Shown here one piece after another: positions 45,413 through 64,000 of a stretch of 64,000 bases of DNA. A program made the position numbers and the translations under genes. The notes below the pieces were generated by a model. That model ran no database searches and was not told where the DNA came from. It was given only the letters and a program-made list of their open reading frames with translations. Each line of letters opens with the position of its first letter. Position 1 is the stretch's first letter. The DNA comes from an uncultured Erysipelotrichaceae bacterium (lineage in GTDB: Bacteria; Bacillota_I; Bacilli_A; RF39; UBA660), in NCBI GenBank assembly GCA_902793375.1, contig CADBDE010000003.1, positions 30,039 to 94,038 of the forward strand, given 5' to 3'.

Positions 45413-45889
45413 TTATTTTATAATTTTTAATAATTCTTTTTTTATAATTTCAATAATATATTTTTTATTATTTGCTCTATTATCTTTTATAGCAACAACT
45501 TCTTTAGTATAAAACTTATTATTATCTCTATCATAAATACTTATATATATTTTATTATTATTATTAACTATATTTCTTTTATCTATCCTGTTTATTTGAC
45601 CAGTTATTCCTACTCCATAATTTGAACTTGTAAAATCGCTTATATTTTTACTCATTTCATTAGCTGTTTCTTTTGAATAAACAGTATACTTATCAATTAC
45701 TTTTTTATTAACACCCATTTTTATTTTATATTCATTTGAGTACGTTACTGCACTATATTTAAAAACTTCACTAGATCCTTCTATATTTGTTATCTCGTTT
45801 GCAAGAAATCCTCCTGTACAAGACTCCATTGTAGATATTGTTTTATTTAGTTTAATTAGTCTTTTTACTATTTCTTTCATATAAACCAT
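45413..45889 (-). CDS. pncC: CinA-type nicotinamide-nucleotide amidohydrolase (PncC domain)
   Basis: TMESCTGGFLANEITNIEGSSEVFKYSAVTYSNEYK matches the CinA C-terminal domain signature (ESCTGG...GSS...VTYSN). Confidence 0.75.
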   Translation of the reverse strand: MVYMKEIVKRLIKLNKTISTMESCTGGFLANEITNIEGSSEVFKYSAVTYSNEYKIKMGVNKKVIDKYTVYSKETANEMSKNISDFTSSNYGVGITGQINRIDKRNIVNNNNKIYISIYDRDNNKFYTKEVVAIKDNRANNKKYIIEIIKKELLKIIK

Positions 45890-46415: not shown

Positions 46416-46423
46416 ATTATCAC

Positions 46424-47188: not shown

Positions 47189-47190
47189 AT

Positions 47191-48018: not shown

Positions 48019-48590
48019 TTCTTTTTTAAATAATTTTTACCTTTTTCAAGTGCATATATAGAATTTAATCCTCCTATATATCCTTTTTCTATGAGACAAT
48101 CGATTTCTTCAAAATCAACAAGTATATATTTTATAAATTCACCCTTATCTAGTTTTTGTTCTTTAACTTTTTTACAATGAAGTGCTACAAAGTAATGGTT
48201 ATATGCTTCTGAACAAGCTTGATCTTGATAAAAGCTTCCAAGCGATACAAACTCATCAGTTGTATATCCAGTCTCTTCTAATAGTTCTCTTTTTGCTGCA
48301 TCAAGAGCGGTTTCATTTTTTTCGATGTATCCAGCAGGAAGACCAACATCAACTGTTCTTTTAGTAAACACTCTTGGTTCTACTGCAAGTATTACTTTAT
48401 TATCTTCAGTAATAGGAAGAATAATAGATGCACTACCGCTTCCTCCATTTTTAAGTATTTTTTCTCTTTTTATTATTTCTCCATTATTAAGCTTACATTC
48501 ATAAGTTTTTGTTGTAAGAAAGTTACCACTTTCTGTTTCAATCATTTGAAGTGTCTTTAATTCATTAAAGTACTTTTCTATTTGGTTCAT
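48015..48590 (-). CDS. Nudix hydrolase (ADP-ribose pyrophosphatase-like)
   Basis: Nudix box GYIEKNETALDAAKRELLEETGY (Gx5Ex7REUxEExGU). Confidence 0.75.
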   Translation of the reverse strand: MNQIEKYFNELKTLQMIETESGNFLTTKTYECKLNNGEIIKREKILKNGGSGSASIILPITEDNKVILAVEPRVFTKRTVDVGLPAGYIEKNETALDAAKRELLEETGYTTDEFVSLGSFYQDQACSEAYNHYFVALHCKKVKEQKLDKGEFIKYILVDFEEIDCLIEKGYIGGLNSIYALEKGKNYLKKK

Positions 48591-50061: not shown

Positions 50062-50062
50062 A

Positions 50063-50680
50063 TTATATACCTCTTTTCTTTTTAGCTAAAACTTTTATTC
50101 CATTAGCTTTCATTTCTTCTATTGCTCTTTTTGTTACTTCGTCAGCATCATGCCCTGGCGCATCATAAGTATCGATTCCATCTTCTGCTACATAGATATC
50201 AATATCTCTATCTAATTGATCAAATAGATTTCTTAATGTAATTCCTCCATTTTTAACACATACTTCTGATAGGCATCCCATAAGAAGTACTGTTTTAAGA
50301 TTTTTTAAACGATCTATAAAATCCATAAATCCTGGTGCAAATACGAAGTTTGTACTATTTTTAGTATAGTCATATGAACAATCTTTATAATCTTCTAGCT
50401 CATCAATTAACATTGGCTCTTCTGTATCTATAGAACAGTGTTCACCAAATGTTTTGTATTCAACTGAACCTTTATGATGCAAATCTCTTATAATTGCAAT
50501 TGCTTTGTTATCATCTTCTTTATAAGATTTTAAAAGTTCATGTTGTCTTCTTACTACCCTCATAATTGATGGTGCAGCAAGAGCTCCTTTCACTACGAAT
50601 CCTTTAACCATATCTATGTTTATGGCTAAGTGTTCAATTTTTAATTCTTGTTCTTGATTTGTTTTGTTATTAATTATCAT
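50063..50680 (-). CDS. pncA: Isochorismatase-family cysteine hydrolase, nicotinamidase-like
   Basis: Catalytic-triad context IDMVKGFV (Asp), K at about position 113, and LLMGCLSEVCV (Cys), as in PncA/isochorismatase hydrolases. First gene of the NAD operon. Confidence 0.65.
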   Translation of the reverse strand: MIINNKTNQEQELKIEHLAINIDMVKGFVVKGALAAPSIMRVVRRQHELLKSYKEDDNKAIAIIRDLHHKGSVEYKTFGEHCSIDTEEPMLIDELEDYKDCSYDYTKNSTNFVFAPGFMDFIDRLKNLKTVLLMGCLSEVCVKNGGITLRNLFDQLDRDIDIYVAEDGIDTYDAPGHDADEVTKRAIEEMKANGIKVLAKKKRGI

Positions 50681-50699
50681 TTTTCATCTCTCCTCTTTT

Positions 50700-50815
50700 T
50701 AACAACTTGTTAATAACATTAGGTATAAAAAAAGTAAATATTTCACACCTGTTATTAACATTATATTAATAACAAACAAAAATGTCAATACTCTTTTTAA
50801 CATTTTGTTAAAAAG
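50700..50815 (-). promoter_or_regulatory. Promoter/operator region of the NAD salvage operon with three palindromic elements (candidate NrtR operators)
   Basis: TGTTAATAACA at 50708-50718; its exact reverse complement TGTTATTAACA at 50750-50760; and TTTAACATTTTGTTAAA at 50796-50812. All lie within 140 bp upstream of the pncA start. Confidence 0.4.
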
Positions 50816-50926
50816 ATATACATTCTACTGTAAAGCAAACAAAAACAATTGCATCAATTATTGGGGAAATGATGAATTTGAAATAAAAGTGAGGCAATTA
50901 AAAAAAGTTATATAAATATAACTCTT

Positions 50927-51904
50927 TTAATCATCTTCATAATAATAATCATCTTCTTCCATATTTTCTTCTTCAAAATGGAATGGCTCATATTCACCTT
51001 TTTTAACTAAATCTTCTTCCCAAGACATTAAAGTAGTATCATTTTTTGATTTAGAATTATTAAATAATTTATATAAGAATCCAAAAAATAAAGTTTTCTT
51101 TATTTTCTTTTCATTTTCTTTTTTTGCTTTTTCTAATTCTTTTAAATTTTTTTCTAATTCATTTATTTCATTACTTATTTTATCAAATTTATCATAAATA
51201 AACGAATCATCAAATACATATGTATATCCTTCATCTTCATATTCTTCTTTTGGTTTTAATTTCTCTTCAGCTTTCTTTCTTTTTCTTTCTTCAATTACAT
51301 TTTTTCCTTCTTCAATTTTATCAAGTAATTCATTATAATCATCTATTGTATAATTTAAATAATCACAAGAATATCTTAGTGCAGATCTTAATTTATATAT
51401 ATTTTTTTCGTCAATAAAATCTTCTAATTTTTTAATATAATTTAAGTATTTTTTGTCATCTTTAAACGTCACCGTAAACATCAAAACATTTAAGTATTTT
51501 TTGTTTTCATAGTAAGTATTTTTTATTAATTCAACAATTTCTTTAATTCGTTCAATATTCTTTTTATATTCTACTAACATTCTTTCTTTTTCATATATCA
51601 TTTTTAATGACATTAATAAAGCATATACATGTTTACAATATTTATCCGTACTTTTGTGATATTCACACTCACAAGAAACATCGACAATATTATCATTATC
51701 AAAATCAATTGATACTTTATATTCTTTAGTACCTTCTACTAATCCAGATACTTTATTATTTGACTTATGAATGGCTTTTACTCTATCAATAGAATAATAA
51801 TTCTTTCCTCTTGACTTTATAATTTCTCTAAATAAATAATCATATTTCGTATTATTTAAATCATACATTTTTTCATCATAAGTTACTTTATCTAATTTCT
51901 TCAT
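50927..51904 (-). CDS. SWIM zinc-finger domain protein with acidic Tyr-rich C-terminus
   Basis: VSCECEYHKSTDKYCKHVYALL fits the SWIM CxCxnCxH zinc-finger pattern. C-terminus EENMEEDDYYYEDD. Confidence 0.5.
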   Translation of the reverse strand: MKKLDKVTYDEKMYDLNNTKYDYLFREIIKSRGKNYYSIDRVKAIHKSNNKVSGLVEGTKEYKVSIDFDNDNIVDVSCECEYHKSTDKYCKHVYALLMSLKMIYEKERMLVEYKKNIERIKEIVELIKNTYYENKKYLNVLMFTVTFKDDKKYLNYIKKLEDFIDEKNIYKLRSALRYSCDYLNYTIDDYNELLDKIEEGKNVIEERKRKKAEEKLKPKEEYEDEGYTYVFDDSFIYDKFDKISNEINELEKNLKELEKAKKENEKKIKKTLFFGFLYKLFNNSKSKNDTTLMSWEEDLVKKGEYEPFHFEEENMEEDDYYYEDD

Positions 51905-51986
51905 AGAATCATCTCAATAATTATTATATCATATTAAAAAATAAGGGGATTTAAAAAAACTTAAGATTTATACTTAAGTCAAAATA

Positions 51987-52517
51987 CTATTTCACATTTC
52001 CAATTCTTTTTACATAGTCTTTATAAATTTTAAAAAATTCTTTAGCATCAAAATAATAACTATCAATATTAAATTCTCTCTTTATAATACCTCTATTTGT
52101 ACATAGTTTTATTATGCAATCTCCACTTAAATCAATATTTTTTGATAATTCAATAAACTCTCTAGAATCATTTAATCCTGAAATATTAATAGGAAAAGTA
52201 GCAGAAAATAATTTAGATACACCTGTTATATTTTTACCGGTTCTACTAGTAATCTCACTTAATAATGTTGGATTTATATTTATTTTATATTCTTTTTCTC
52301 CTTTTACTATTTTTATACTATTAATAGATATTGGAAGTCTTGATTTATTTTCTATAAGCAAATCAAAAATATAAATATATTTATCCTTAATATAATTTCT
52401 AGTATATGAATTGATAATTAAATTAATATTTTTGTGATTACACTTATAAGTATAAATAGCATTACCTAACGATAAGACAAAAGCTAATATTGCAATAATG
52501 ATTGAAATTATTTCCAT
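51987..52517 (-). CDS. Hypothetical membrane-anchored protein (176 aa)
   Basis: N-terminal TM helix IISIIIAILAFVLSLG. No other motif. Confidence 0.35.
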   Translation of the reverse strand: MEIISIIIAILAFVLSLGNAIYTYKCNHKNINLIINSYTRNYIKDKYIYIFDLLIENKSRLPISINSIKIVKGEKEYKININPTLLSEITSRTGKNITGVSKLFSATFPINISGLNDSREFIELSKNIDLSGDCIIKLCTNRGIIKREFNIDSYYFDAKEFFKIYKDYVKRIGNVK

Positions 52518-52541
52518 ATTTTTTTACCTCCATTTTTATTT

Positions 52542-53462
52542 CTATTTATTGGTGTCATATTTATCAACTATTTTTATCAAGTCATTTTTTAAATTTTCTA
52601 TTTTTATCTCATATTCTTTTTTCGACTTTACTTCTTTATGAATGCAATTATTTATAATTCTTATTGCCTCTTTTTGCTGATCAGTACCATTCTCCTCAAT
52701 ATATTTACAAAAGTTATCATTTAAAGAATTTAGTTTGTTATCCATTAAATCATATTTCTTAATAGTATCTTCATCTTTATTAAAAAAACTAATGAGATTA
52801 TTTGAATCAAAATATTCTTTCAAAATGTGTATAGATTCCTCATTTTCTCTTGAAAACATTTTATCTATTTCATTTGTTGATTCATTATATTTTTGCTCTA
52901 TATAATTAATTTTTTCGTTTATTTTATCAAAAGAATATTGAATTCTAGGCTTTGATAATATGATTGATTCTATTCTCTTTTTTGATATTTTATTATATAC
53001 TTCATAGAAAATATCATTAATAATTATTCGTAATTTTTCAATAATTTTGAAATCAATAAACATCTCAAATAACATAGTATCATCTTCATCATCTTTAAAA
53101 AAATGATTTACTTGGTCTCTTATATATTTAATTATTTTATAAAAATTTGATTTGTAATTTGGTTGATTATAGTATTTTTTATCAGTTGCATAAAACTCTT
53201 TGTTTATAAAAAGTTCAAAGTCATTAAAACGCTTACATTTTCCAAATAAATCTTTTGAATTTTTTATAGAATTTAACAGGTTATATATAGAAGAACAATA
53301 AACTTTATATACCCTGTTTCTTTCAGTCATAGTGTCAATAGATAATTCTTTGTCATCAAATTCAACATATATTTTAGATAGTGTATTAGATAATTCTACA
53401 AAATCTTGAATTCTTAAAATACGTTTTATTTGTTTATTTGAATATGTCATAATATACCTCAC
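52542..53462 (-). CDS. Hypothetical protein (306 aa), all-helical; possible Abi-like gene by context only
   Basis: ORF only. Located in the defense-type island. Confidence 0.3.
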   Translation of the reverse strand: MRYIMTYSNKQIKRILRIQDFVELSNTLSKIYVEFDDKELSIDTMTERNRVYKVYCSSIYNLLNSIKNSKDLFGKCKRFNDFELFINKEFYATDKKYYNQPNYKSNFYKIIKYIRDQVNHFFKDDEDDTMLFEMFIDFKIIEKLRIIINDIFYEVYNKISKKRIESIILSKPRIQYSFDKINEKINYIEQKYNESTNEIDKMFSRENEESIHILKEYFDSNNLISFFNKDEDTIKKYDLMDNKLNSLNDNFCKYIEENGTDQQKEAIRIINNCIHKEVKSKKEYEIKIENLKNDLIKIVDKYDTNK

Positions 53463-53547
53463 TTTAATGTAATATTATATCATAAACTAGAATAACTTTT
53501 TTTCAAATTTATTATATAATTTTTTTATACAATTTATAATAAATAAT

Positions 53548-53580
53548 TAAAAACCGATGATAATCATTCATCGGTTATTT
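53548..53580 (-). terminator. Rho-independent terminator after the KAP NTPase gene
   Basis: aaccgatga-taatcat-tcatcggtt followed (minus sense) by ttttaattattt. Confidence 0.5.
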
Positions 53581-55476
53581 TCATAGTAATTCAAATTTTT
53601 CAGATAAAATGCTTAATAAATAATTTATAGCTTCTTTTTTTGTAACGCCATACTTATCTTTTTCCAATTTGTTAATACCATTTATTAATTCTTCAAATGA
53701 TTCTTTATCACTATCATAATACTCCTTCATATTTCCATTATTATATATTCTATCTATGCAATACTTAAAATAGTATATATTTTTATTATTACTTTTATCA
53801 ATATTACTTATTATTCTTTCTATATTCAATTTTGATAAAAAACCTTTCACATTAAAAAAGTAATTATAATTTTCACTTTCTCGAATATAATTATATAATT
53901 TTATTCCCCAATCATCATCAGTTAATATATTATCAAGAGAATCTTTATTAATATTGATATTTTTGTTTTTACTTGCTATTTTTAATCTTTCTATATTTTT
54001 ATTATAAGTATTCAATACCTTCTCATCTCTAATGATTTGCTCATAATTTATGTAATACTTTCTATCAAGATTTTTATCTATCTTATCTTCCATAATAGTT
54101 ATTATCTCATCAATAAGTTTAGTTTCAAAATTCAAATTCTGTAATGCTGATAATGTTACAATTATTTTTGGGAAAACACCACATGTATATAAATCATTGC
54201 TTAATTCATCTTTTAATGAATTTAATAGTTCATGCAATTTATCATCATCTAATTCCCAATAAATCTTTAATTTTGAAAATGCATTATCTGTATTTTCAAA
54301 GTCAGTTTCATTACTATTAATATATTCATCTATCGTACTCTCTATTTCTTTTATATCCACATCTTTATTTAGAATATAGTCATCAACAAACTTAAATGCT
54401 ACAAAATACATAAGCATGCTCTGATGTTCATCATCACCAAAACATGTTGTTTGATATTTTATTCCACCAGACCAATTCAACATTTTATTACCTGCTTTAA
54501 TATTAATAATATCAATAATAAAATTAATATATATTTTTGAATACATTTCTTTTTTTAATTTTAATTTAGCTTCATTTATTTTTAAAAACAGTTCATAAAA
54601 ATCTTCGAATATACATTTTATTGTTCTTAAATTGCTACAAGTATATAAGTTGGTTTCATTAATCAATATTTTTTTATGTTCCTTTAAAAACATAAAGTAA
54701 TCTTTATCATATTTATATATATCAATCAACCTATCTATTATTGTATCTAAATTAGGATTATATTTATAAGTTTTACCAATTAGTTTTTCTTTAATAATCC
54801 TGTAATTATAATTTATTTCATATAAACGATTCACTCTTTCTTTTACAGTAGAAATAGTCGGTGTAGTATTATCAATTTTATTACCAAAAAAATCTTTATT
54901 TTCAGGATCTTCATAATTAATGCTTGATTGCATCGTAGATATAAGTTTCAATTCATAGTTCTTATCAAAATCTATTTTACCAATTTCATTTTCATTTGCA
55001 ATTATAACTACTTTTATACCATTATGTTCAACGAATGAATTAATATATGCTAAGCACACATTAATATCTAAATTTACTCTTTCTAAATCATCAAATATTA
55101 ATAAATAATTTTTTAAATCACATTTTTCATTTAGTTTTCCAAACACTTCTGAATAATCTAAATCTAGTTTTAGTATTTTAGCTGCACTAAAACCAATTGA
55201 AAGCATTTTTGAATACTTTCCTGTGATTTGTAAATAAATATTGGCAGATATTATATCTAGAGAATCTACACCATATAATGATATGTATATAGGTTTCTTA
55301 AATTTTAAAGATGGTTTTTTCCCATTACTTTTAATATCATCATTTAATTTTGGAATCAATTCTTCTTTAACAAAATGTGTTTTCCCTGATCCCCAGTCTC
55401 CATCAATTAATACAGCATAATTTATTCTGTCATTTACTATATATTTTTTTATTTCTTCTATTAAATCTAAATTCAT
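53581..55476 (-). CDS. KAP-family P-loop NTPase
   Basis: AVLIDGDWGSGKTHFV is the KAP-type GxWGxGKT Walker A; LIFDDLER is the Walker B region. 631 aa. Confidence 0.7.
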   Translation of the reverse strand: MNLDLIEEIKKYIVNDRINYAVLIDGDWGSGKTHFVKEELIPKLNDDIKSNGKKPSLKFKKPIYISLYGVDSLDIISANIYLQITGKYSKMLSIGFSAAKILKLDLDYSEVFGKLNEKCDLKNYLLIFDDLERVNLDINVCLAYINSFVEHNGIKVVIIANENEIGKIDFDKNYELKLISTMQSSINYEDPENKDFFGNKIDNTTPTISTVKERVNRLYEINYNYRIIKEKLIGKTYKYNPNLDTIIDRLIDIYKYDKDYFMFLKEHKKILINETNLYTCSNLRTIKCIFEDFYELFLKINEAKLKLKKEMYSKIYINFIIDIINIKAGNKMLNWSGGIKYQTTCFGDDEHQSMLMYFVAFKFVDDYILNKDVDIKEIESTIDEYINSNETDFENTDNAFSKLKIYWELDDDKLHELLNSLKDELSNDLYTCGVFPKIIVTLSALQNLNFETKLIDEIITIMEDKIDKNLDRKYYINYEQIIRDEKVLNTYNKNIERLKIASKNKNININKDSLDNILTDDDWGIKLYNYIRESENYNYFFNVKGFLSKLNIERIISNIDKSNNKNIYYFKYCIDRIYNNGNMKEYYDSDKESFEELINGINKLEKDKYGVTKKEAINYLLSILSEKFELL

Positions 55477-55633
55477 TTTATCCTCCTAAAAAGAAAAATT
55501 CTATACTTTAATGTATAGAAATCTATAATTACATTATACTACTTTTTCCAATAAATGTCTGAAATAATTATAAATAAAAAAAGTATCATATTAATAATAA
55601 TTAGTTACATTATTCTTTTAATTTTTAAAATAA

Positions 55634-56638
55634 CTATTTTATTATTTCTTTCACAATTTCTTCTCCATGTGTTTTTACTTTAATTTCAGGAAGTATATTA
55701 GAATTTTTTAATTCATCAAGAGTCTCTGGTCTAATTTCAACTAATTTATCTAACTCTTCATTAGTAAACACATAATAAGCAGGAATCCCCATTTCACTAG
55801 ATCTATTCTTTCTTAATTCAATTAACCTATCCTTTAAATCATCTACAACTGTAACTGTATTGTTATTACAATATTTCTCTTTATAGTAATTATAGTAATC
55901 AACAACATCATTTGATGATATATCTAAATAATACTGTGCAATTGATTCCATATCTTTTTTATATTCAATTGGATCAAGTCTATCTCTATGATCAATTTCA
56001 TATTGAATTTGTCTTGTTAATGAATCAGCACGAAGAACTTTATACTTCATATCACTTGGAGCTTTACTAGTATTTAATATTGTATCTTGATTAGCAGCTA
56101 CTACCAATACTCTTCTATAATACTCATAATTACTTGATGCAAACATTTTTTTAATTGTAGAAGTATTCTTTTCCCATATCTTTCTCAAAACTTCTCTTTG
56201 AGCTTCTACTTGCGTTAAAGGAGAATTCATTCCTTTTTTAATTATCTTTCCATTAATATTTAGTTCTCTTATAAAATCTCCTTTTTCATTAACAGTAATA
56301 TTTCCAACAAGATTTTTACATTCAACATAATAAATAAATACAGGAGTAATAATAACATAATCTATTTGTGCAGTTAAATCTTCATATTTAACTTTTATAT
56401 CTCTTAAAATATACATACCAATATTAGATTTCTTTAATTGATATGCTATTTCATTTTCTCCATCTAATCCCTTTTTAATAATATATAATTCACTTAATAA
56501 TTCTTCATTATTAGGATATTCTTCATTTAATCTTTTTAAAGCATCATATCTATCTTGTAAATCACTATTCTCTTTATAAAAAACTGTATCTTTAAATCTA
56601 AATGCTTCTATACTACTTAATAAACCCATTTTTACCAC
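55634..56638 (-). CDS. NERD-domain nuclease-related protein with C-terminal HRDC/HTH-like tail
   Basis: GENEIAYQLKKS...LRDIKV...AQIDYVIITPVFIYYVECKNLVGNITV fits the NERD core (QIDhhhh...G.hhhE.KN). Confidence 0.65.
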   Translation of the reverse strand: MVKMGLLSSIEAFRFKDTVFYKENSDLQDRYDALKRLNEEYPNNEELLSELYIIKKGLDGENEIAYQLKKSNIGMYILRDIKVKYEDLTAQIDYVIITPVFIYYVECKNLVGNITVNEKGDFIRELNINGKIIKKGMNSPLTQVEAQREVLRKIWEKNTSTIKKMFASSNYEYYRRVLVVAANQDTILNTSKAPSDMKYKVLRADSLTRQIQYEIDHRDRLDPIEYKKDMESIAQYYLDISSNDVVDYYNYYKEKYCNNNTVTVVDDLKDRLIELRKNRSSEMGIPAYYVFTNEELDKLVEIRPETLDELKNSNILPEIKVKTHGEEIVKEIIK

Positions 56639-56837
56639 CCAACTGAATTATAGCATATTTATTTGTAATTAACCTAGTTATTTTCTCTATCCATGAATAT
56701 TAAATAATTCTAGATTGTATCACAAGCATTTAAAAAAAAAGCAAAATGTTTATCAGTTATACATATATTTTTCAGAAAATAGTATATAAGTTCATAACTT
56801 AAATAAATAAAATATAAAAAAAGCTAGACTTAAAAAT

Positions 56838-57635
56838 CTAATTTTTTTCCTTCTCGCTATTCTTATTGCTAAGTAAACTTCCTATTCTTATCTTTCTTTT
56901 TTCTAATTGTTTCTTATATATTTCATCCTCTAAAATAATTTCAATAGCACTTTTTAGTAATTTAAATTGTTCATTGCATTCTTCTTCAGACAAGTTATGA
57001 ACTCCATCACTTAGTAGCGAGTATAAAACATTATATCCAGTACTTTTTAGCATTTCATTTAAAAGATTTTCCTTAACAAGTTGTTTTATAATATCTTTTG
57101 TTTTCATGCCGGTAAAATCTGTTTTGCTTTTATTTTTTGCTTTTTCTATTAAGGATTCAAAAACTCTTCTCAAATAAACAACTGACGCAATGTTCAAATT
57201 ATTTTCTTTAGATTTAATTGATAGAAGATAATATTCCTTCTCAGATTCATCCAACTCTTTGATGATATTATCATTTATTTCTTTGCTAAAATACATTGAG
57301 GATGGATATTGTCCAAATTTTACTAAGTTTCCCTTTCCTAAAGTTTCAAATGATACTTTAAAACTATGATTATACTCACATGAAAAATCATAAATTAATA
57401 ATTCATTATTATGTACGATTAGCGCTTCATTCACGCTTTTACTTAAATAATAACCAGCTGTAGTTACATCTGAGCATTTGAATATTCTTTTTTCTTTGCA
57501 TCTTGGACAATACAATTCAACTTTGATAGACTTACTATAAGTTGGAAAAAGAAACTCAAAATCTTCTGATTTAACATTTATTTCTGATCCAATTGCTTTT
57601 AATAATAAATCTTCATTTATTATTTTATCATTCAT
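56838..57635 (-). CDS. Hypothetical protein with N-terminal C4 zinc-ribbon and C-terminal helical domain (possibly DUF4145-like)
   Basis: CPRCKEKRIFKCS...(20 aa)...CEYNH zinc ribbon. C-terminal LLNEMLKSTGYNVLYSLLSDGVHNL is reminiscent of the DUF4145 R..GN..AH helix. Last gene of the MTase-REase-MazG-NTPase operon (20-nt gap). Confidence 0.3.
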   Translation of the reverse strand: MNDKIINEDLLLKAIGSEINVKSEDFEFLFPTYSKSIKVELYCPRCKEKRIFKCSDVTTAGYYLSKSVNEALIVHNNELLIYDFSCEYNHSFKVSFETLGKGNLVKFGQYPSSMYFSKEINDNIIKELDESEKEYYLLSIKSKENNLNIASVVYLRRVFESLIEKAKNKSKTDFTGMKTKDIIKQLVKENLLNEMLKSTGYNVLYSLLSDGVHNLSEEECNEQFKLLKSAIEIILEDEIYKKQLEKRKIRIGSLLSNKNSEKEKN

Positions 57636-57655
57636 ATTTTTATCACTCCTAATTT

Positions 57656-59389
57656 TTAATAACTATTATTATTATTTATATATTTACTTAAATATTTTCT
57701 TAGCCCTTCATCACACACATAAATATATGTCCCAAGCATACCCCTAAGCATCATTGTTCTGTAGATATTCAATACATATTCTAACAATTCTTCATCTGTT
57801 GTATTGGCTTTACCTTTAGCATCAAAATAATTTTTTCTATCAGTAATAAATTCTTTTGTTTTTAAATCATACCTTAACTCATTTCCTATTATTAATCCTA
57901 CATAATTTAAATCAAATCCTTGAGTTGTATGAATACTTCCAATTTCATTTACTGAATTTGGAGAATTAATCCAATCTGTCGCTTTCGAATTCCATATATA
58001 TTTGAATCCATCAATTTCTATATCAAATATTCCATTTTCAAAATTATTCTTTATTTCTTTTTTGTCCCAATACAAATGTAGTCTTTTACCTTTACTATTC
58101 CATTTCCATGCATATCCAGCAACATTTCTACACAAACCAAATTCAGAATCTTTTTTTATAATATCTTGAACCATTTCATTAACATCATCAAACATTTTTA
58201 AATCATATTTATTGAATTTTATCTTCTTTATTGGTGGTTTATCACTAAAAATCGATTTAACATAATCAACATATTCTTCTCCACCTGCAATACATCTCAA
58301 TTGAGCAGTCAATTTATATGTTTTATAGTTTTTTCTTTGCATTAATTCATAAAATTTTTCTTTTCTTATATCTGTTGGTTTTATCGATTGATCTTCATCA
58401 TAGAAAAATATTTGATATTTACTTTTTTTCAATACCCAATCTAGTTCTGTTCCTTCTTTTCCTAAACCCATTTTTCTATTATTCTCATCAAAAGTACAAT
58501 ATTGTGTTAAATTTTTTCTTCTTCTAAGCCTATGAGCTTCATCTACAATTAATACATCATATATTTCATTTGATTTACCAATATCATGTGGACTTAATAC
58601 CATTCTGGAGTTTAACCCTTTAATGTGTTTAAAAACATTCCTTAAAGTAGTTCTTAAATTATCCATTGGTATAACTAAACCTATTTTTAAGTCATCGATA
58701 GCATCATTAATTTTTAATATATCAGAAAGGTTTTGTTCAACTTGATCTTCTTCTATTTCAATTGTTTTTTTATCTTTTGCCTGCATCAATAATTTAAGAA
58801 TATAAATACCTAAAATAGTTTTTCCAGTACCAGCTCCACCCTCAACTACAAATGTGGCCGGTTCTTTTGTGTTAACATAATCTGCTAAATCTGATAATAT
58901 ACTATTAACAATCATATATTGATCAATAGTTAAGGATTTGTATGGAGAATATTTAAACAAATCTGTATTTTCAATCATTCTCAAATCATTCTTAACAAGG
59001 CCTTTTGTTTTTAATTGAATCCATATTTCTCGAAATTTATCTTCATACATTTTTCTTTGATAATAATCATGGTTTTGTAATCCACCATTCCCATTTTGCA
59101 ATAAATATTTATTATCAGCAGACATATATTTTATTAAAAAAGACTCAAGATCTAAGATAGATGATTTATTAAATGTATCATCTCCTATAATGCTTATCTT
59201 ATCTAAATTTCTTCTTACTTCATTCGCCCAATGCTGATTTGATCTAATACTAGCATCAGTAGTTTCTCCAATATAAGCTTCTTCCTTATTGTTAATTATA
59301 TAAACTACCGGCCAATTACTTCCATATTTTTCATTTTTTAGAACATTAGAAGTACCAGCATTAAACATCTTAGTAATAATCTCTGCCAT
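57656..59389 (-). CDS. GIY-YIG nuclease-like N-terminal domain fused to a DUF2075/Schlafen-like SF1-type P-loop NTPase (Nhi-like architecture)
   Basis: N-terminus VVYIINNKEEAYIGETTDASIRSNQH resembles GIY-YIG (Y...YIG...R...QH). Core FVVEGGAGTGKTILG (Walker A) and VLIVDEAHRLRRR (Walker B, DEAH-like). 577 aa. 11-nt gap from the MazG gene. Confidence 0.6.
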   Translation of the reverse strand: MAEIITKMFNAGTSNVLKNEKYGSNWPVVYIINNKEEAYIGETTDASIRSNQHWANEVRRNLDKISIIGDDTFNKSSILDLESFLIKYMSADNKYLLQNGNGGLQNHDYYQRKMYEDKFREIWIQLKTKGLVKNDLRMIENTDLFKYSPYKSLTIDQYMIVNSILSDLADYVNTKEPATFVVEGGAGTGKTILGIYILKLLMQAKDKKTIEIEEDQVEQNLSDILKINDAIDDLKIGLVIPMDNLRTTLRNVFKHIKGLNSRMVLSPHDIGKSNEIYDVLIVDEAHRLRRRKNLTQYCTFDENNRKMGLGKEGTELDWVLKKSKYQIFFYDEDQSIKPTDIRKEKFYELMQRKNYKTYKLTAQLRCIAGGEEYVDYVKSIFSDKPPIKKIKFNKYDLKMFDDVNEMVQDIIKKDSEFGLCRNVAGYAWKWNSKGKRLHLYWDKKEIKNNFENGIFDIEIDGFKYIWNSKATDWINSPNSVNEIGSIHTTQGFDLNYVGLIIGNELRYDLKTKEFITDRKNYFDAKGKANTTDEELLEYVLNIYRTMMLRGMLGTYIYVCDEGLRKYLSKYINNNNSY

Positions 59390-59400
59390 AGTACCACTTC

Positions 59401-59715
59401 CTACAATTTATTATATTTAGTGCTAACACCTTTAGCTTTTTCTACAGGATATTTTCTAGCGGTTTTTCCCATTTTATCTAAAACAATTTGTTTAGGATCA
59501 ACACCAAGCTTGTCTGCCATTAATAAACAATAATTAATAACATCTGCTAATTCTTCTTTTACTTCATCTAAATTATATTCACTATTCCATTGAAAACATT
59601 CTAAAAGTTCTCCAGCTTCAATACATATACTTTTAGCTAAATTCTCTGGAGAATGGAATTGATCCCAATCTCTTTCTCTTGTAAATTCAACGACTTTATT
59701 TGATAAATCTTTCAT
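59401..59715 (-). CDS. MazG-like nucleotide pyrophosphohydrolase (all-alpha NTP-PPase)
   Basis: RDWDQFHSPENLAKSICIEAGELLECFQW and EELADVINYCLLMADKLGVD match the two EExxE/D helices of MazG-family NTP pyrophosphatases. 104 aa. Confidence 0.75.
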   Translation of the reverse strand: MKDLSNKVVEFTRERDWDQFHSPENLAKSICIEAGELLECFQWNSEYNLDEVKEELADVINYCLLMADKLGVDPKQIVLDKMGKTARKYPVEKAKGVSTKYNKL

Positions 59716-59724
59716 ATATATCTC

Positions 59725-60813
59725 CTATGCAGTAACTCTATAACTTACTGGTGTCATTTTCATATTTATTATTTCTTTATATGTATAAGTTTTATAATTA
59801 GGAAATTCCGAATTAACATTAGTAACCATGTACAAAATATAATTATCTTTATGTTCATTCATAAATTTCAATTCTCCTGATGATAAGTTAAATACTTCTT
59901 TATTACTTTGAGTAGCTTTTACTTCAATATATTTCTTTACACCATCTTCAATATATTCAATATCATATGGCGAAAATTTATAAGTTTTACTTGTATGAAA
60001 TAAATCATTATCTTCTAGCAACTTAGATTTTAGTAACTCATATACAAATTCTTCACCCTTTAAACCATTACTACTTCTTGTTCTATTTATTTCTTCAATT
60101 TCAATATCTTCTTTACCGGTTACCAAATTTCGTTTACATGTAACTACAACATTATTTTCATAAGAAAAGCTATCATCTATTTTTAATTTTTGTCCTACAC
60201 CTTTACCTTCTTTAAAAACGCTTGTTAATAAAATTCCTTTGGGTCCAACTAATTTTATTAAAAAATTTAATGTACGGGTTTCAGAATAGTAAACAAACCC
60301 ATTAACTACAAAAGCATAATCACCATTTTCTTCCATTATTTTGTCGAGTATTAATCTATTATTAATATTAAAACCATCTTTTCTATAATCAAAAGAAATT
60401 GGATAATGAATCATTAATCTTCCTAAATGAGTATTACTATTATGTGACGCGTTAATTATATTGGCTGTCTCAGAAGTTTCTTCTTTTATATACATACAAT
60501 ATGAGGCATCAACATCTAATTTTTCACCATTAACTAATATATTATCAAAAACAAATATATCTGTAACATTTGTTTTATTTTTTTCATTTTTTCTGCAAGC
60601 ATCTATTAAATCATCAGGAATTTTATTATCATCCACCCTACAATTCATATCACGTAATTGTAATATATCGTTTCTCCATTTATTTGGATTTTTACTTTGA
60701 TTAAGTTCTGTTTCCACACTAGCTGTGTGACCTTTTTTATAGTTATTATACATCCCATATCTAAGTGATGTTTCGGATATTTTAAATTTTAATTCTTTCA
60801 TAATAATCTCCAA
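59725..60813 (-). CDS. Putative Type II restriction endonuclease, PD-(D/E)xK fold, cognate to the adjacent C5-MTase
   Basis: C-terminal SPYDIEYIED...KYIEVKAT gives a P-Y-D ... E-V-K arrangement, the PD-(D/E)xK catalytic motif. Start codon abuts the MTase stop. Confidence 0.5.
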   Translation of the reverse strand: MEIIMKELKFKISETSLRYGMYNNYKKGHTASVETELNQSKNPNKWRNDILQLRDMNCRVDDNKIPDDLIDACRKNEKNKTNVTDIFVFDNILVNGEKLDVDASYCMYIKEETSETANIINASHNSNTHLGRLMIHYPISFDYRKDGFNINNRLILDKIMEENGDYAFVVNGFVYYSETRTLNFLIKLVGPKGILLTSVFKEGKGVGQKLKIDDSFSYENNVVVTCKRNLVTGKEDIEIEEINRTRSSNGLKGEEFVYELLKSKLLEDNDLFHTSKTYKFSPYDIEYIEDGVKKYIEVKATQSNKEVFNLSSGELKFMNEHKDNYILYMVTNVNSEFPNYKTYTYKEIINMKMTPVSYRVTA

Positions 60814-60814
60814 A

Positions 60815-61918
60815 CTAGCCTAACCAATCCTCATCTATTTCTTTTAATTGATTAAATATATGATCCAAAAGAATATAGACTAAATTTACATCCCAACCAT
60901 TTCCTGCTCTTTTTGATAATTGAGTATAAGACTGATTTCCAAATACTATATCAACTTTTCTACCAACACCATCTAGTCCTTCAAGACCCATAAGTCTAAA
61001 TTGCTCTGTAACAGACATTTTTCTAACAACTTCTTTATTTCCATGTGGCTCTATAACCCTTAAAGCATTATGTTCTGGCATTGTAATGGTAATTGAATAA
61101 CCATCTGTTTTTATTTTTTTATTATATACATCAAAACATAATGCTTTCTTTACTTTAAAACTATCTACATTATGTTTTTCTTTAAGATGTTTAATTTGTT
61201 TATCAGACAAATACATTTCTCTTGGAACATATCCATCCGGATCTAGAAAATCTGCCATAAGCTTTCCATTGTGAATTTCATTAGGAACCATTGAAAAATC
61301 TACTGGTAGCCCTCCTAATCTTGCAAACATCCATACTCTTTCTCTGTTTTGAGGCACACCATAATCTTTACTATTTAATAATGCAACTCTTAGAGGTGAA
61401 TCTTTACCACCACTTGTATATCCCATATCTATAAGCATATTATCCATTTGTTTTCTTGTAGACTCAAACTTTTTTGAAAAAAATCCTTTAACATTTTCTA
61501 ATAAAATATATTTTGGTTTTTTTGCTTCACATATTCTCATAATATGTTGAAATAAAGTTCCCCTACCATATGGATCATCTACACCTTTTTGCATTCCAGC
61601 AGTTGAAAAAGGTTGGCAAGGAAATCCTCCCATAAAAATATCAAAATCTGGGACATCATCTGGATTAAGCTTTGTAATATCACCAAAATTCTTAATATTT
61701 TTTCCATCTTTATTTTTGTGATTTAAATCATATAATTCACAAGCATATTTATCTATTTCAGAATAACCAATTATTTCAAAATCAAAATTTGGATACTTTC
61801 CTTTTAGTCGATCTAAAGCAAAATGCCCCCCGCCATAACCTGCAAATCCTTCAAATACTTTTAATTTTTTCCTTTTTTTGTTTGCCATGACAAACCTCCT
61901 AAATTGTTTTACATACAA
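60815..61918 (-). CDS. DNA (cytosine-5)-methyltransferase
   Basis: Motif I VFEGFAGYGGG, motif IV GGFPCQPFSTAG, motif VI ENVKGF, motif VIII QNRERVW. Confidence 0.9.
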   Translation of the reverse strand: MYVKQFRRFVMANKKRKKLKVFEGFAGYGGGHFALDRLKGKYPNFDFEIIGYSEIDKYACELYDLNHKNKDGKNIKNFGDITKLNPDDVPDFDIFMGGFPCQPFSTAGMQKGVDDPYGRGTLFQHIMRICEAKKPKYILLENVKGFFSKKFESTRKQMDNMLIDMGYTSGGKDSPLRVALLNSKDYGVPQNRERVWMFARLGGLPVDFSMVPNEIHNGKLMADFLDPDGYVPREMYLSDKQIKHLKEKHNVDSFKVKKALCFDVYNKKIKTDGYSITITMPEHNALRVIEPHGNKEVVRKMSVTEQFRLMGLEGLDGVGRKVDIVFGNQSYTQLSKRAGNGWDVNLVYILLDHIFNQLKEIDEDWLG

Positions 61919-61971
61919 TTATATCATATAATTATTTAAAGTCTTTAATTTTTTAATGATAGATTATATAA

Positions 61972-62994
61972 TTAAATACTAAAGTTACTAAAGAAATCAT
62001 CTTTCACATTTGCACGACGAGATCTATTACGCAACTTCATAAGAGCTTTTGATTCAATTCGGAGTATTGCTTTAGGTGTTACACCAAACTCTTCAGCGAT
62101 TTCTTTAAGCGTTCTTGGTTTCCCATCTCCAATTCCAAACCTTAGTCTCAATACTTTTTCTTCTCTATCAGTTAAAGTTAGTAAAATAGCATCCAATCTT
62201 TCATCATCGACACCCACTAAATCATATAATTTATTAAACGTTAATAATTCTTCTTGTTCTTGTTGCTCTTTTTCTACCGCTTCTTCAGATATATTCTCAC
62301 CTAATTCATTTAAAGCAGTTGAAGCATATTTTACAAACTTTATTGTTTTTCTTGTTTTATTTTTATATTCTTCACATAATATTTTTTCATTATTTAAATA
62401 AGTATCATCACGTGTAACAAACAAAACATCATATTTTGAATTACATAATAACGATTCCCATATATATTCATCACAAATAGTTAAACTTTTATATCCTCCC
62501 TTATCACTTCTTGGTACTCCACCTAAATTGTTTCTCTTTATTGCTTCATTATAAGCAAAATCATTGTCTTTGATTATTATTGTGTGACTATTTTCAATGA
62601 TCTTATTAAACATACTAAGCACAATATCTTTGTTTTCATCATTTATCATTTTTTCTATTTCATTTTTTAATGGAATATAACTTTCTTTTATTTTAGAAAC
62701 TAATTTAGCATTATCCTTATTTAGTTCAGTTATTTTTTCTGTAAAAATCCCAAGCGGTTCTAAATTAAACATGTTATTTGTGATTTGTTTCTCTTTTGAT
62801 TCAACTTTATCAAATAATCCTTTTAACTCTGTAACCCTATTTCTTTTGAATTCTCTTATAACTTGTTCGGTAATTATCAAATTATTTGATGATGATAGTT
62901 TATCTAGTATTTCTTTATTTTCTTCTTTATATCGATAAAAATCCAAATATTTATTAGTATCAATAAAAATTTTAAGCATATTTGCCACCACCAA
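61972..62994 (-). CDS. Fusion protein: N-terminal PIN-like nuclease domain plus C-terminal sigma-70 region-4 helix-turn-helix
   Basis: N-terminus KIFIDTNKYLDFY (PIN Asp-1 motif). Later LFVTRDDTY (PIN distal acidic motif). C-terminus EKVLRLRFGIGDGKPRTLKEIAEEFGVTPKAILRIESKALMKLR is a textbook sigma-70 region 4 (RpoD/SigA-like 4.2 HTH). Confidence 0.5.
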   Translation of the reverse strand: MVVANMLKIFIDTNKYLDFYRYKEENKEILDKLSSSNNLIITEQVIREFKRNRVTELKGLFDKVESKEKQITNNMFNLEPLGIFTEKITELNKDNAKLVSKIKESYIPLKNEIEKMINDENKDIVLSMFNKIIENSHTIIIKDNDFAYNEAIKRNNLGGVPRSDKGGYKSLTICDEYIWESLLCNSKYDVLFVTRDDTYLNNEKILCEEYKNKTRKTIKFVKYASTALNELGENISEEAVEKEQQEQEELLTFNKLYDLVGVDDERLDAILLTLTDREEKVLRLRFGIGDGKPRTLKEIAEEFGVTPKAILRIESKALMKLRNRSRRANVKDDFFSNFSI

Positions 62995-63143
62995 TTACAT
63001 TATATCATAAAGAAAAGTCATATTTCTATTCAATTATTGCATACTTATATTTTTTTATAATAATATCTACCTTTTGACAAAAATAATGATAATAACTATT
63101 TTATCATTAGATTTGTCAGAACAAAAAAAGAACATTTCTGTTC

Positions 63144-64000
63144 TTATCTTTTAAGTTTTAAACTATATTCTTCTACTACTTCTTCGTTAGTTTTATTAAA
63201 TTGTTTAACAAATACTTTTTCTCCCATAAATAATCTTCTATAATTTGATTCATTTACTTTAAGTCCTTTTGCTTCTAAGAAACTATTTCTTGCTTTAGAT
63301 AAAGTAAGACTTTGCATTAAATGTTTTGGTTCTCTAACAAGAATACTATGAAGTCCTAATGAACTATAAAAAGAAAGCTTTTCTTTAATAGATTCACTAC
63401 TTAAAGTAACAATACCTGGATACCTTTTTATTATATCTTTAACATTATCATCTTGATAATCACATTCTTTTATAGTTTTTATTTTTTCTTTAATCTTATC
63501 AGGACTCATACTAAACAACGTTCTTTGATGAGAATAGAGTCTTATTGCTTCTTCTTTAGTAAATCCAAGTTCACTAAGTAAATTTATTCTTTCAATAATA
63601 GATTCTTTTGTATATCCAAGTATTGCTGGATTAATTCTTAATATTGAATATATTGCTTCTCTTTTAAATCCAATATCTATTAGATCATTTATTTTATTAT
63701 ATAATGTATCATTGGTAAAAAGTAAAAGAGTTGGTGTTCTTTTAAATACTTTTAAAGCATCTTCTTCACTCATTCCAAAAGATTTATAAAGATCTAATCT
63801 ATTTTTAATATAATTAGATGAACGAGATAATAAAGCAGGAGATTTCTTAACCATTCCTATTACTTCTTCTTTAGTGTATCCTAAGGATAAAAAATAATTA
63901 AATGATTCATCTACTTTATTTTTAAATGCAAGAACATTAGGAGCAAGAATAATCATCTTTTTAATATCTTCTTTTGAAAATCCTAAAGATAATAAATGTT
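63144..64000 (-). CDS. mTERF-like repeat protein (partial; the reading frame continues beyond the right window edge, so the true N-terminus is outside the window)
   Basis: At least six tandem repeats of about 30-35 aa of the type LSLGYTKEEVIGMVKKSPALLSRS / LYKSFGMSEEDALKVFKRTPTLLLFT / LIDIGFKREAIYSILRINPAILGYT / LSELGFTKEEAIRLYSHQRTLFSMS. These match the mTERF motif (L..LGfs.e.i.k.l...P.lL..s). The frame upstream of the annotated Met (63956) stays open to 64000 and continues with HLLSLGFSKEDIKKMIIL. Confidence 0.55.
   Translation of the reverse strand, partial: HLLSLGFSKEDIKKMIILAPNVLAFKNKVDESFNYFLSLGYTKEEVIGMVKKSPALLSRSSNYIKNRLDLYKSFGMSEEDALKVFKRTPTLLLFTNDTLYNKINDLIDIGFKREAIYSILRINPAILGYTKESIIERINLLSELGFTKEEAIRLYSHQRTLFSMSPDKIKEKIKTIKECDYQDDNVKDIIKRYPGIVTLSSESIKEKLSFYSSLGLHSILVREPKHLMQSLTLSKARNSFLEAKGLKVNESNYRRLFMGEKVFVKQFNKTNEEVVEEYSLKLKR

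What the first reader, a model, noticed from the sequence alone, without database searches (positions are those of the whole stretch)
63144..64000. Bacterial mTERF-repeat protein adjacent to the PIN-sigma4 gene
At least six tandem roughly 30-aa repeats (for example LSELGFTKEEAIRLYSHQRTLFSMS and LSLGYTKEEVIGMVKKSPALLSRS) match the mitochondrial transcription termination factor (mTERF) repeat. That family is characteristic of eukaryotic organelles, where it binds duplex DNA and terminates transcription, and it is rare in bacteria. The gene continues beyond the window. Pairing an mTERF-like DNA-binding solenoid with a sigma-region-4/PIN protein hints at a transcription-targeting module, possibly acting against foreign DNA.
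Basis: partly seen in the sequence, partly recalled or inferred. Interest (0 to 1): 0.65.

Follow-up and report, generated by a model that had tools for sequence, protein, structure and literature searches.

The report
Bacterial mTERF-family repeat protein, stand-alone gene
The window ends inside a genuine mTERF-family (organelle-type nucleic-acid-binding repeat) gene in an uncultured, spore-forming gut Firmicute; papers say prokaryotes lack this family, but the gene is a self-contained unit and is not functionally paired with the PIN-sigma4 gene next to it.

Summary

The host is bacterial: about 25% GC, with SpoVAD and a SigF-like sigma factor. The protein belongs to a sizeable bacterial clade. 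About 150 of the 163 best-ranked family proteins examined have the bacterial-type composition, and 362 clusters score E<=1e-30. Some relatives form tandem arrays of up to 10 paralogs.

The proposed mTERF/PIN-sigma4 module is not supported. The pairing occurs only in this species. Orthologs have unrelated neighbours but keep their own conserved promoter/leader and their own terminator. PIN-sigma4 homologs sit in other defence islands without mTERF.

Most likely function (inferred, not shown): a basic solenoid that binds host DNA or RNA to modulate gene expression. It is a new member of a known family in an unexpected domain of life.

The parts
63144..64000 (-). 3' part of the mTERF-family gene: codons for residues 91-374 of a 374-aa protein, plus the TAA stop at 63146-63144. 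The first 90 codons lie beyond the window edge (L053 5122-5391).
   Evidence: Translation. Pfam mTERF E=4.1e-35. L053 is 100% identical to the window and completes the gene.
63885..63986 (-). mTERF repeat 3 (residues 95-128, LGFSKEDIKKMIILAPNVLAFKNKVDESFNYFLS)
   Evidence: Repeat parsing. Three helices per unit in the model.
63780..63884 (-). mTERF repeat 4 (residues 129-163, LGYTKEEVIGMVKKSPALLSRSSNYIKNRLDLYKS)
63675..63779 (-). mTERF repeat 5 (residues 164-198, FGMSEEDALKVFKRTPTLLLFTNDTLYNKINDLID)
63570..63674 (-). mTERF repeat 6 (residues 199-233, IGFKREAIYSILRINPAILGYTKESIIERINLLSE)
63465..63569 (-). mTERF repeat 7 (residues 234-268, LGFTKEEAIRLYSHQRTLFSMSPDKIKEKIKTIKE)
63360..63464 (-). 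mTERF repeat 8 (residues 269-303, CDYQDDNVKDIIKRYPGIVTLSSESIKEKLSFYSS)
63147..63359 (-). C-terminal cap (residues 304-374, LGLHSILVREPKHLMQSLTLSKARNSFLEAKG...RRLFMGEKVFVKQF...). It is the best-conserved part across the bacterial clade. The Pfam mTERF match runs to profile position 313 of 314.
   Evidence: Invariant and near-invariant columns. Pfam stretch 97-263 of the fragment aligns to profile positions 144-313. 139 of the top hits cover this half.
63118..63144 (-). Terminator-like hairpin plus T-run directly after the stop codon. Either GAACA(63143-63139)/TGTTC(63134-63130) followed by T7 (63129-63123), or the 10-bp alternative stem found by folding.
   Evidence: Fold -9.7 kcal/mol, z=-1.8. 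Every ortholog has a hairpin plus T-run at the same position with a different stem sequence. The simple scan misses it because the stem has fewer than 3 G-C pairs.

Best explanation
The gene encodes a true member of the mTERF family. The protein is 374 aa and basic (pI 9.3). It is an all-alpha solenoid of eight 34-39-aa three-helix repeats plus a conserved 71-aa C-terminal cap. It is encoded on the chromosome of an uncultured endospore-forming Firmicute with about 25% GC.

The gene is a self-contained, monocistronic unit. It has its own extended -10 promoter, a short conserved leader and an intrinsic terminator. It sits at the edge of a variable defence island but is not part of it.

Inferred mechanism, by analogy with the solved and characterised family members: the superhelix wraps a specific stretch of the host's own nucleic acid. 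The target could be duplex DNA, as for human MTERF1 and plant mTERF5/6/8, which act on the bacterial-type plastid RNA polymerase. It could instead be structured RNA, as for the MTERF3/MTERF4 type. Binding would modulate gene expression, through site-specific transcription pausing or termination, or through RNA or ribosome maturation.

Shown here: family and fold membership, the bacterial host, transcriptional autonomy, purifying selection, and the lack of a conserved partner. Inferred only: nucleic-acid binding, the target, and the regulatory outcome.
For: Family:
- Pfam mTERF scores 121.6 bits for the fragment and 220.4 bits (E=3.5e-65) for the 98%-identical full-length ortholog P0001.
- A profile of the bacterial proteins hits human MTERF1, MTERF3 and MTERF4 at E=7.6e-21, 2.9e-19 and 1.2e-15.

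Fold:
- The AlphaFold model has pLDDT 89 with three helices per 35-aa unit.
- Foldseek's best match is MTERF1-DNA at E=1.5e-8 over 329 columns.

Chemistry:
- pI is 9.3, with 60 K+R against 47 D+E.
- Basic residues concentrate at repeat positions 5, 10, 13, 14 and 29, and a near-invariant Pro sits at position 16.

Bacterial host:
- The window carries tRNAs, ScpA, SpoVAD and a SigF-like sigma factor.
- Relatives lie next to mraZ-rsmH-ftsL-pbp, cmk/alaS/mltG, cdd-era and GerA.

Autonomy:
- About 45 nt upstream of the ATG are nearly invariant in 7 orthologs of 37-62% protein identity that have unrelated upstream genes.
- Each ortholog has a hairpin plus T-run after its stop codon, with a different stem sequence.

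Selection: dN/dS is 0.18-0.50 in the unsaturated pairs.

No mobile carrier: nothing was found in phage, plasmid or viral-contig collections.

Precedent for mTERFs acting on a bacterial-type polymerase: PMC7909791.
Against: - No binding, target or phenotype is shown.
- No conserved neighbour gives a functional hint.
- Sigma-70-like promoter matches are no more frequent than in shuffled sequence in this AT-rich DNA. The promoter call therefore rests on cross-species conservation only.
- Several orthologs sit beside restriction-modification, diversity-generating-retroelement or conjugation-type genes. A loose link to variable regions is therefore not excluded.
- Some mTERF proteins act mainly as protein adaptors, for example MTERF4-NSUN4.
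Confidence: 0.5

Rival explanations
1. One reading: mTERF and the adjacent PIN_8/Sigma70_r4 protein form one anti-foreign-DNA module, in which the solenoid targets transcription or DNA and the PIN nuclease executes.
For: The two genes are adjacent and on the same strand at the edge of a defence island that includes a Dcm methylase, a NOV_C nuclease-like protein, a MazG-like protein, an SLFN-type helicase, a NERD-HRDC protein and a KAP NTPase matching PDC-S49. The pairing is kept in a second strain, L001, which shares 97-98% identity. Other orthologs also lie near Type I restriction-modification genes or mobile genes.
Against: - PIN-sigma4 is absent from all fetched mTERF loci outside this species.
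- PIN-sigma4 homologs P0175 (70% identity) and P0194 (53%) lie in other islands with no mTERF within 8 kb.
- A hairpin plus T-run and a separate TGnTATAAT promoter-like site lie in the 149-nt spacer between the two genes.
- mTERF has no PADLOC hit.
- Distant family members sit among housekeeping genes.
Confidence: 0.05
2. An RNA-side role: an adaptor for ribosome biogenesis or RNA maturation, like MTERF3, MTERF4-NSUN4, plant mTERF9 or the mitoribosomal mS93. It would bind rRNA or another structured RNA, possibly recruiting a modifying enzyme, rather than acting on DNA.
Against: These adjacencies are each seen in one lineage only, and the genes have their own promoter and terminator. No methyltransferase partner is conserved. 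Foldseek ranks DNA-bound MTERF1 first, over the full length.
Confidence: 0.25
3. A eukaryote-like effector: a gene acquired from a eukaryote and used against a eukaryotic host or protist organelle, diversifying in tandem arrays as TALE and BurrH proteins do.
For: The family is otherwise eukaryotic. The carriers come from gut and rumen metagenomes. Tandem arrays of up to 10 divergent paralogs exist in relatives.
Against: The N-terminus shows no signal-peptide-like sequence, by inspection; the model starts its first helix at residue 9. The carriers are spore-formers, and no secretion genes lie nearby. The promoter is housekeeping-type and conserved. dN/dS is below 1. Paralogs are embedded among core genes.
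Confidence: 0.07
4. A purely protein-binding scaffold, or a structural repeat protein with no nucleic-acid role.
For: Alpha-solenoids often bind proteins. The faint UBA-like matches reflect a helical-hairpin resemblance.
Against: The basic pI is conserved across the clade, at 8.6-9.5 in 9 of the 10 proteins checked. All strong structural neighbours bind DNA or RNA.
Confidence: 0.1

Closest known systems
Human MTERF1 (PDB 3MVA/3N6S), mitochondrial transcription termination factor bound to the tRNA-Leu(UUR) site
   Different: Sequence identity is only 16-19%. The bacterial protein has no mitochondrial presequence. Its repeats are much more regular, with a 35-aa period. It has a conserved 71-aa cap. 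Its host polymerase is the multi-subunit bacterial enzyme, not the phage-type mtRNAP. Whether MTERF1's base-flipping residues are conserved was not tested.
Human MTERF3 (PDB 3M66) and MTERF4-NSUN4 (4FZV, 7O9K)
   Different: These proteins act in mitoribosome biogenesis, and MTERF4 works with a dedicated methyltransferase partner. No conserved partner gene is found next to the bacterial genes.
Plant plastid mTERF5/MDA1, mTERF6 and mTERF8, which pause or terminate the bacterial-type plastid polymerase (PMC7909791, PMC6085346)
   Same: They are the only known mTERFs acting on a bacterial-type RNA polymerase. That makes a DNA-roadblock role in a bacterium mechanistically plausible. Single plant mTERF units score 63-83 bits against the bacterial profile, similar to human MTERF1 at 77.6 bits.
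   Different: The plant proteins are nucleus-encoded and carry transit peptides. The bacterial clade is not detectably closer to plants than to animals.
BurrH / TALE DNA-binding repeat proteins of bacteria
   Different: They have two helices per repeat with a hypervariable di-residue, and they belong to a different family. Scores are far below those of the mTERF proteins.

Membership tests
mTERF family (Pfam PF02536) | Significant match to the family profile, above the curated threshold | tested here: met
   121.6 bits (E=4.1e-35) for the 284-aa fragment and 220.4 bits (E=3.5e-65) for the 98%-identical full-length ortholog P0001, against a cut-off of 23.1.
mTERF family (Pfam PF02536) | Tandem mterf motifs of about 30-35 aa, each of three short helices, with a conserved proline | tested here: met
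   Eight repeats of 34-39 aa plus a cap. Repeat similarity is about 24 sd above shuffles. The model shows a helix 10 / helix 5 / helix 11-13 pattern per unit. Pro at repeat position 16 occurs in 34 of 49 cells.
mTERF family (Pfam PF02536) | Superhelical fold shared with solved mTERF structures | tested here: met
mTERF family (Pfam PF02536) | Usual attribute of characterised members, not part of the sequence definition: nucleus-encoded and organelle-targeted in eukaryotes | tested here: not met
   The gene is on a bacterial chromosome, with tRNAs, SpoVAD, a sigma factor and a Dcm methylase nearby. The first helix begins at residue 9, so there is no presequence. This is what makes the case unusual.
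mTERF family (Pfam PF02536) | Binds DNA or RNA | not testable with these tools
   Only indirect evidence: pI 9.3 and basic residues at fixed repeat positions.
Two-gene defence module with the PIN_8/Sigma70_r4 protein | Conserved co-occurrence of the two genes across lineages | tested here: not met
   PIN-sigma4 is found only in the window, L001, L053 and L054, which are one species. It is absent from all other fetched mTERF loci. Two PIN-sigma4 homolog loci lack mTERF.
Two-gene defence module with the PIN_8/Sigma70_r4 protein | Co-transcription as an operon | tested here: not met
   A positionally conserved hairpin plus T-run follows the mTERF stop codon, and a separate TGnTATAAT site precedes the PIN gene. 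This is sequence-level inference only; no transcript data were available.
Known anti-phage defence proteins (PADLOC-DB 2.0) | Match to a defence-system model | tested here: not met
   No hit at E<=1e-3 for the mTERF fragment, whereas the neighbouring genes do hit.
   No such family appears at E<=0.01 in Pfam for the fragment or for the full-length ortholog P0001.
TALE/BurrH repeat proteins | Two-helix repeats of 33-35 aa, with close structural similarity | tested here: not met

The most novel reading that the evidence does not exclude
mTERF proteins are not a eukaryotic invention confined to organelles. A diversified bacterial clade exists in very low-GC gut Firmicutes, comprising single-copy orthologs, tandem arrays of up to 10 paralogs, and a short partner protein. 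Its members would act as programmable, sequence-specific protein roadblocks or RNA binders on the bacterial transcription machinery. That would be a protein-based, site-specific termination or pausing system in bacteria. The clade would be either the long-sought prokaryotic source of the family or an ancient eukaryote-to-bacterium transfer.
Probability: 0.2. Interest if true: 0.8.

Novelty: new member of a known kind. Interest (0 to 1): 0.55.

Why it matters
Reviews and recent family surveys state that mTERF genes are missing from prokaryotes (PMC12977773; bioRxiv 10.1101/2022.01.18.476766). No paper on a bacterial mTERF turned up in five full-text searches.

A clear bacterial clade reopens the question of where this organellar gene-expression family came from. 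It also offers compact, very regular 35-aa-repeat proteins in which a nucleic-acid recognition code could be studied. The tandem arrays of divergent paralogs suggest many different targets.

For the window itself the practical message is narrower. The gene should be annotated as an mTERF-family protein. One source currently calls a relative a 'GntR-family regulator'. It should not be counted as a component of the neighbouring defence island.

Tried and rejected
- An exact-sequence look-up of the PIN-sigma4 product found nothing. The ORF listing TTG start gives 340 aa, whereas the called genes are 335 aa. The look-up worked with the SLFN-type helicase instead.
- The AlphaFold-database fold library was unavailable, so no taxonomic spread of structural neighbours could be obtained.
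- The genome-contig scan returned only 2 loci. It is pattern-limited and so underestimates the spread.
- The viral contig scan, phage and plasmid tblastn, and the BFVD viral structure search gave no homolog. The one weak BFVD match is a giant-virus protein.
- The NCBIfam library gave only a sub-threshold, irrelevant hit.
- Pfam on longer family members (P0020, P0140, P0134) found no informative fused domain.
- Neighbour clustering across the loci fetched up to that point found no partner conserved across subfamilies.
- A neighbour-joining tree of the C-terminal half could not place the eukaryotic sequences, because only one true eukaryotic sequence covered that region.
- The plant proteins P0022 and P0036 ranked very high, which suggested a plant-to-bacterium transfer. 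I rejected this as shown: their scores are sums over 5-6 fused copies of 50-83 bits each, no better than human MTERF1.
- The simple promoter and terminator scans are not informative in this AT-rich DNA. I used cross-species alignment instead.
- Host taxonomy could not be taken beyond 'uncultured Bacilli-labelled MAG relatives'.

Full report
**1. What is at the coordinates**

The feature is a protein-coding gene on the minus strand. Its stop codon (TAA) is at 63146-63144, and the reading frame is open up to the window edge.

Pfam matches the fragment to mTERF (PF02536) at E=4.1e-35 and 121.6 bits, against a curated cut-off of 23.1. Nothing else matches convincingly. There are only short UBA/RuvA_C-like resemblances without a significant stretch, and no TPR, PPR or HEAT model. 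NCBIfam has no model for the protein.

The repeats are real at the protein level. Six complete 34-35-aa units have a mean pairwise local score of 40.7, against 17.6 +/- 0.95 in 500 shuffles. They are old: no tandem repeat is visible in the DNA. The period is 35 aa rather than about 30.

**2. The complete gene**

An exact-sequence look-up of a neighbouring gene product returned contig L053 (ENA ERZ27280399, 111 kb). L053 is 100% identical to window 47656-64000 over 16,345 nt and continues past the window edge.

The full protein is 374 aa, and the window lacks residues 1-90. It differs at 5 positions from P0001, the best database hit. P0001 scores 220.4 bits (E=3.5e-65) against Pfam mTERF.

The protein consists of eight repeats of 34-39 aa and a 71-aa C-terminal cap. 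Its pI is 9.3. The repeat consensus is L-G-[FY]-[TS]-K-E-[ED]-[IV]-x-x-[IM]-I-[KR]-[RK]-x-P-T-[IL]-[LF]-x-[YLF]-S-x-[ED]-S-I-x-x-[KR]-I-x-x-L. Basic residues concentrate at positions 5, 10, 13, 14 and 29.

**3. Fold**

An AlphaFold2 model built on 16 homologs has mean pLDDT 89.2 and pTM 0.75. It shows a strictly repeating three-helix unit.

A sequence profile of the bacterial proteins finds MTERF1, MTERF3 and MTERF4 in the PDB at E=7.6e-21, 2.9e-19 and 1.2e-15. Membership of the mTERF family is therefore met on every criterion that could be tested. The one usual attribute it lacks is organellar targeting.

**4. The host is a bacterium**

The window has about 25% GC and a strong strand bias. 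It carries two tRNA genes. It also carries ScpA, SpoVAD, a SigF-like sigma factor, a VanY-type carboxypeptidase and an NAD-salvage cluster.

Relatives of the gene lie next to mraZ-rsmH-ftsL-PBP-murE, GerA germination genes, cmk/alaS/mltG and cdd-era. The only named relatives of the neighbouring helicase are MAGs labelled 'Bacilli bacterium'. The two reference-genome hits are an 'uncultured Bacilli bacterium' from rabbit gut and a human-gut MAG.

**5. How rare is it**

Papers state that mTERF genes are absent from prokaryotes. A search for MTERF1 homologs in cyanobacteria was negative. Five full-text searches found nothing on bacterial mTERFs. A pattern-based scan of one genome per 185,579 species found two loci.

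Metagenomic protein space tells a different story. A profile search of 1.84 billion cluster representatives gave 5,019 hits at E<=1e-3, 2,229 at E<=1e-10 and 362 at E<=1e-30.

I examined the 145 new representatives in that list together with the 18 proteins from the first homolog search, 163 in all.
- About 150 have the Lys/Asn/Ile/Tyr/Phe-rich composition of very AT-rich bacteria.
- 139 cover the C-terminal half including the cap.
- About 11 are long eukaryote-type proteins. Two of them are plant gene models. They rank high only because several partial matches add up: 50-83 bits per copy for the two plant models, and up to 118 bits for the other long proteins. Human MTERF1 scores 77.6 bits on the same profile.

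The bacterial clade is therefore real and sizeable. It is not visibly closer to plants than to animals. The direction and age of any transfer remain open.

The fetched loci have 21-29% GC, with one exception at 37%. No homolog was found in phage genomes, plasmids or viral contigs. BFVD gave only a weak giant-virus match.

**6. Is it paired with the PIN-sigma4 gene?**

No.

- *From the mTERF side.* The PIN_8/Sigma70_r4 protein occurs next to mTERF only in the window and in L001, L053 and L054, which are the same species at 97-100% identity. It is absent from all other fetched mTERF loci.
- *Ortholog neighbours.* Orthologs at 55-62% identity have quite different neighbours. These include a Type I restriction-modification system and a PcfJ-like gene (L008), a glycosyltransferase (L011), and an ABC transporter and a Macro-domain gene (L018). 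A 41% relative sits between remnants of a diversity-generating retroelement and mraZ.
- *From the PIN side.* The fusion family has about 30 clusters. Homologs at 70% and 53% identity sit in other defence-type islands with no mTERF within 8 kb. One island has AlwI-type restriction-modification genes, an SRA-NOV_C protein and an SLFN fragment. The other has Abi_alpha and a PRTase plus reverse transcriptase.
- *PADLOC.* The defence-system library has no match to the mTERF protein. The neighbours do match: MzaA-like sigma region 4, MTase_II, TmtA-like NOV_C and PDC-S49.

**7. Transcription unit**

I aligned the upstream DNA of seven orthologs whose upstream genes are unrelated. About 45 nt are almost invariant: TTTTGTGGTATAATA-n-C-n-ACT-nnn-AAAGAGGGGAT-nn-ATG. 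This comprises an extended -10 element, a short leader and a strong ribosome-binding site. Further upstream, five of the seven (L008, L011, L015, L017, L018) show a hairpin plus T-run that would terminate the preceding gene.

Directly after the stop codon every ortholog has a hairpin plus T-run whose stem sequence differs from species to species. In the window this is GAACA-GAAA-TGTTC-T7 at 63143-63123. Folding also offers a 10-bp alternative stem. The consensus terminator scan misses it because the stem has only two G-C pairs.

The PIN-sigma4 gene has its own TGnTATAAT site in the 149-nt spacer. Single-sequence promoter matches are not above shuffle expectation in this DNA, so the argument rests on the conservation.

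The motif occurs nowhere else in the window. Among the fetched loci, the exact pattern occurs only upstream of mTERF orthologs. Why the leader is this well conserved is unexplained. Autoregulation is one possibility.

The gene is under purifying selection, with dN/dS of 0.18-0.50 in pairs where dS is not saturated.

**8. Most likely function**

Shown here:
- a genuine mTERF solenoid
- a basic protein
- expression as an autonomous unit
- conservation under purifying selection
- chromosomal location in a spore-forming Firmicute
- no fixed partner

Inferred: like every characterised relative, it binds nucleic acid along the superhelix and affects gene expression. Two versions are plausible. The first is a DNA-bound roadblock that pauses or terminates the bacterial RNA polymerase. 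Plant mTERF5/6/8, which act on the bacterial-type plastid polymerase, set the precedent. The second is an RNA or ribosome-maturation adaptor of the MTERF3/4 type.

**9. Comparison and novelty**

The gene is a new member of a known family, in a domain of life where the literature says the family does not occur. The window's gene itself is a plain mTERF solenoid.

The more unusual features are in its relatives. Tandem arrays reach ten divergent paralogs (L003 4515-14848). In the 30%-identity subfamily, a conserved short mTERF-like ORF of roughly 130-145 aa follows the long gene.

Automated Pfam annotation already flags these proteins. The novelty therefore lies in recognising and characterising the clade, not in detecting it.

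**10. Verdict**

The family assignment and its unusual host are supported. The functional pairing with PIN-sigma4 is not supported. Interest is moderate, at 0.55. A specialist in organellar gene expression would be surprised by a diversified bacterial mTERF clade, and it makes the origin of the family testable. No function is demonstrated, and the specific hypothesis that prompted the finding fails.

Noticed in passing
window 50927-62994 (minus strand): A defence island. It contains a SWIM/ATG17-like protein, two unknowns, a KAP NTPase matching PADLOC PDC-S49 (53581-55476), NERD+HRDC (55634-56638), an unknown 265-aa protein, an SLFN-group-3 helicase with a faint GIY-YIG match (57656-59389), a MazG-like protein, a NOV_C nuclease-like protein (TmtA-like C-terminus), a Dcm C5-methylase and the PIN_8/Sigma70_r4 fusion. 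A 97-98% identical strain (L001) replaces the distal part with DpnII/MboI, another SLFN helicase and HamA plus a DEAD helicase.
   Followed up: partly
window 61972-62994 (minus); homologs P0173-P0203: The PIN_8 + sigma-70 region 4 fusion is a family of about 30 clusters. In the loci looked at it sits in defence-island contexts. Its region 4 resembles the MzaA sigma factor of the MZA anti-phage system. It has its own TGnTATAAT promoter-like site.
   Followed up: partly
L053 5075-5121 and the corresponding positions in L008, L011, L015, L017, L018, L005: About 45 nt upstream of the mTERF start codon are nearly invariant across orthologs of 37-62% protein identity (extended -10, leader ACT..AAAGAGGGGAT). 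This is better conserved than the flanks and absent elsewhere in the window. The reason is unknown; autoregulation is possible.
   Followed up: partly
L003 4515-15318; L004; L013 5629-10722; L006 4292-6778; L007 7791-9582: Tandem arrays of divergent mTERF paralogs, up to 10 in L003 at 29-54% identity to each other, in related low-GC gut bacteria.
   Followed up: partly
e.g. L020 11070-11507, L022 11496-11945, L025 2082-2537, L003 14926-15318: In the distant (about 30% identity) subfamily, the long mTERF gene is almost always followed by a short mTERF-like ORF of roughly 130-145 aa (Pfam mTERF 28.6 bits). It may be a dedicated partner. It is absent next to the window's ortholog group.
   Followed up: partly
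L020 7928-14396; L026 5833-10581: Distant mTERF genes are inserted among core genes. One arrangement is AI-2E transporter, cmk, mTERF(s), alaS (only 597 aa in the stop-to-stop ORF) and mltG/YceG. Another lies upstream of cdd-era.
   Followed up: no
L003 1-3372: A 977-aa protein with three RNA-polymerase alpha-CTD-like domains plus a sigma-70 region 4, followed by a HIRAN-domain protein, lies just upstream of the mTERF array. It is not present at that position in the syntenic L013.
   Followed up: partly
L053 1761-5054 (just beyond the window edge): Upstream of the mTERF gene lie a 767-aa UvrD-type helicase that JGI calls 'DNA helicase-4', an 80-aa ORF, a 225-aa protein with a faint Peptidase_MA_2 match, and TraX. 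In a related species (80% helicase identity, L058) the helicase is flanked by another defence cluster: a methyltransferase, RE_AlwI, GmrSD and DUF6119.
   Followed up: partly
window 45413-50680 (minus): An NAD salvage and repair cluster (CinA, NadD-like, NadE, a radical SAM protein, NUDIX, PncB, PncA-like isochorismatase) directly abuts the defence island.
   Followed up: no
window 11791-13923, 14286-15998, 16303-17700, 36074-37339, 39550-41247, 30270-34724: Many large ORFs have no Pfam match at the thresholds used, so the genome is poorly covered by known families.
   Followed up: no
P0020 (residues ~345-560) and P0140 (residues ~430-550): Two family members carry extra regions with repeated 'WFEKNG...LG.KL' motifs that look like helicase-associated-type repeats. 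Pfam found nothing there.
   Followed up: partly
P0006 (73 of 5.8 billion-cluster database entry): One source (JGI) names an ortholog 'DNA-binding transcriptional regulator YhcF (GntR family)'. This looks like a mis-annotation, since only mTERF matches.
   Followed up: no
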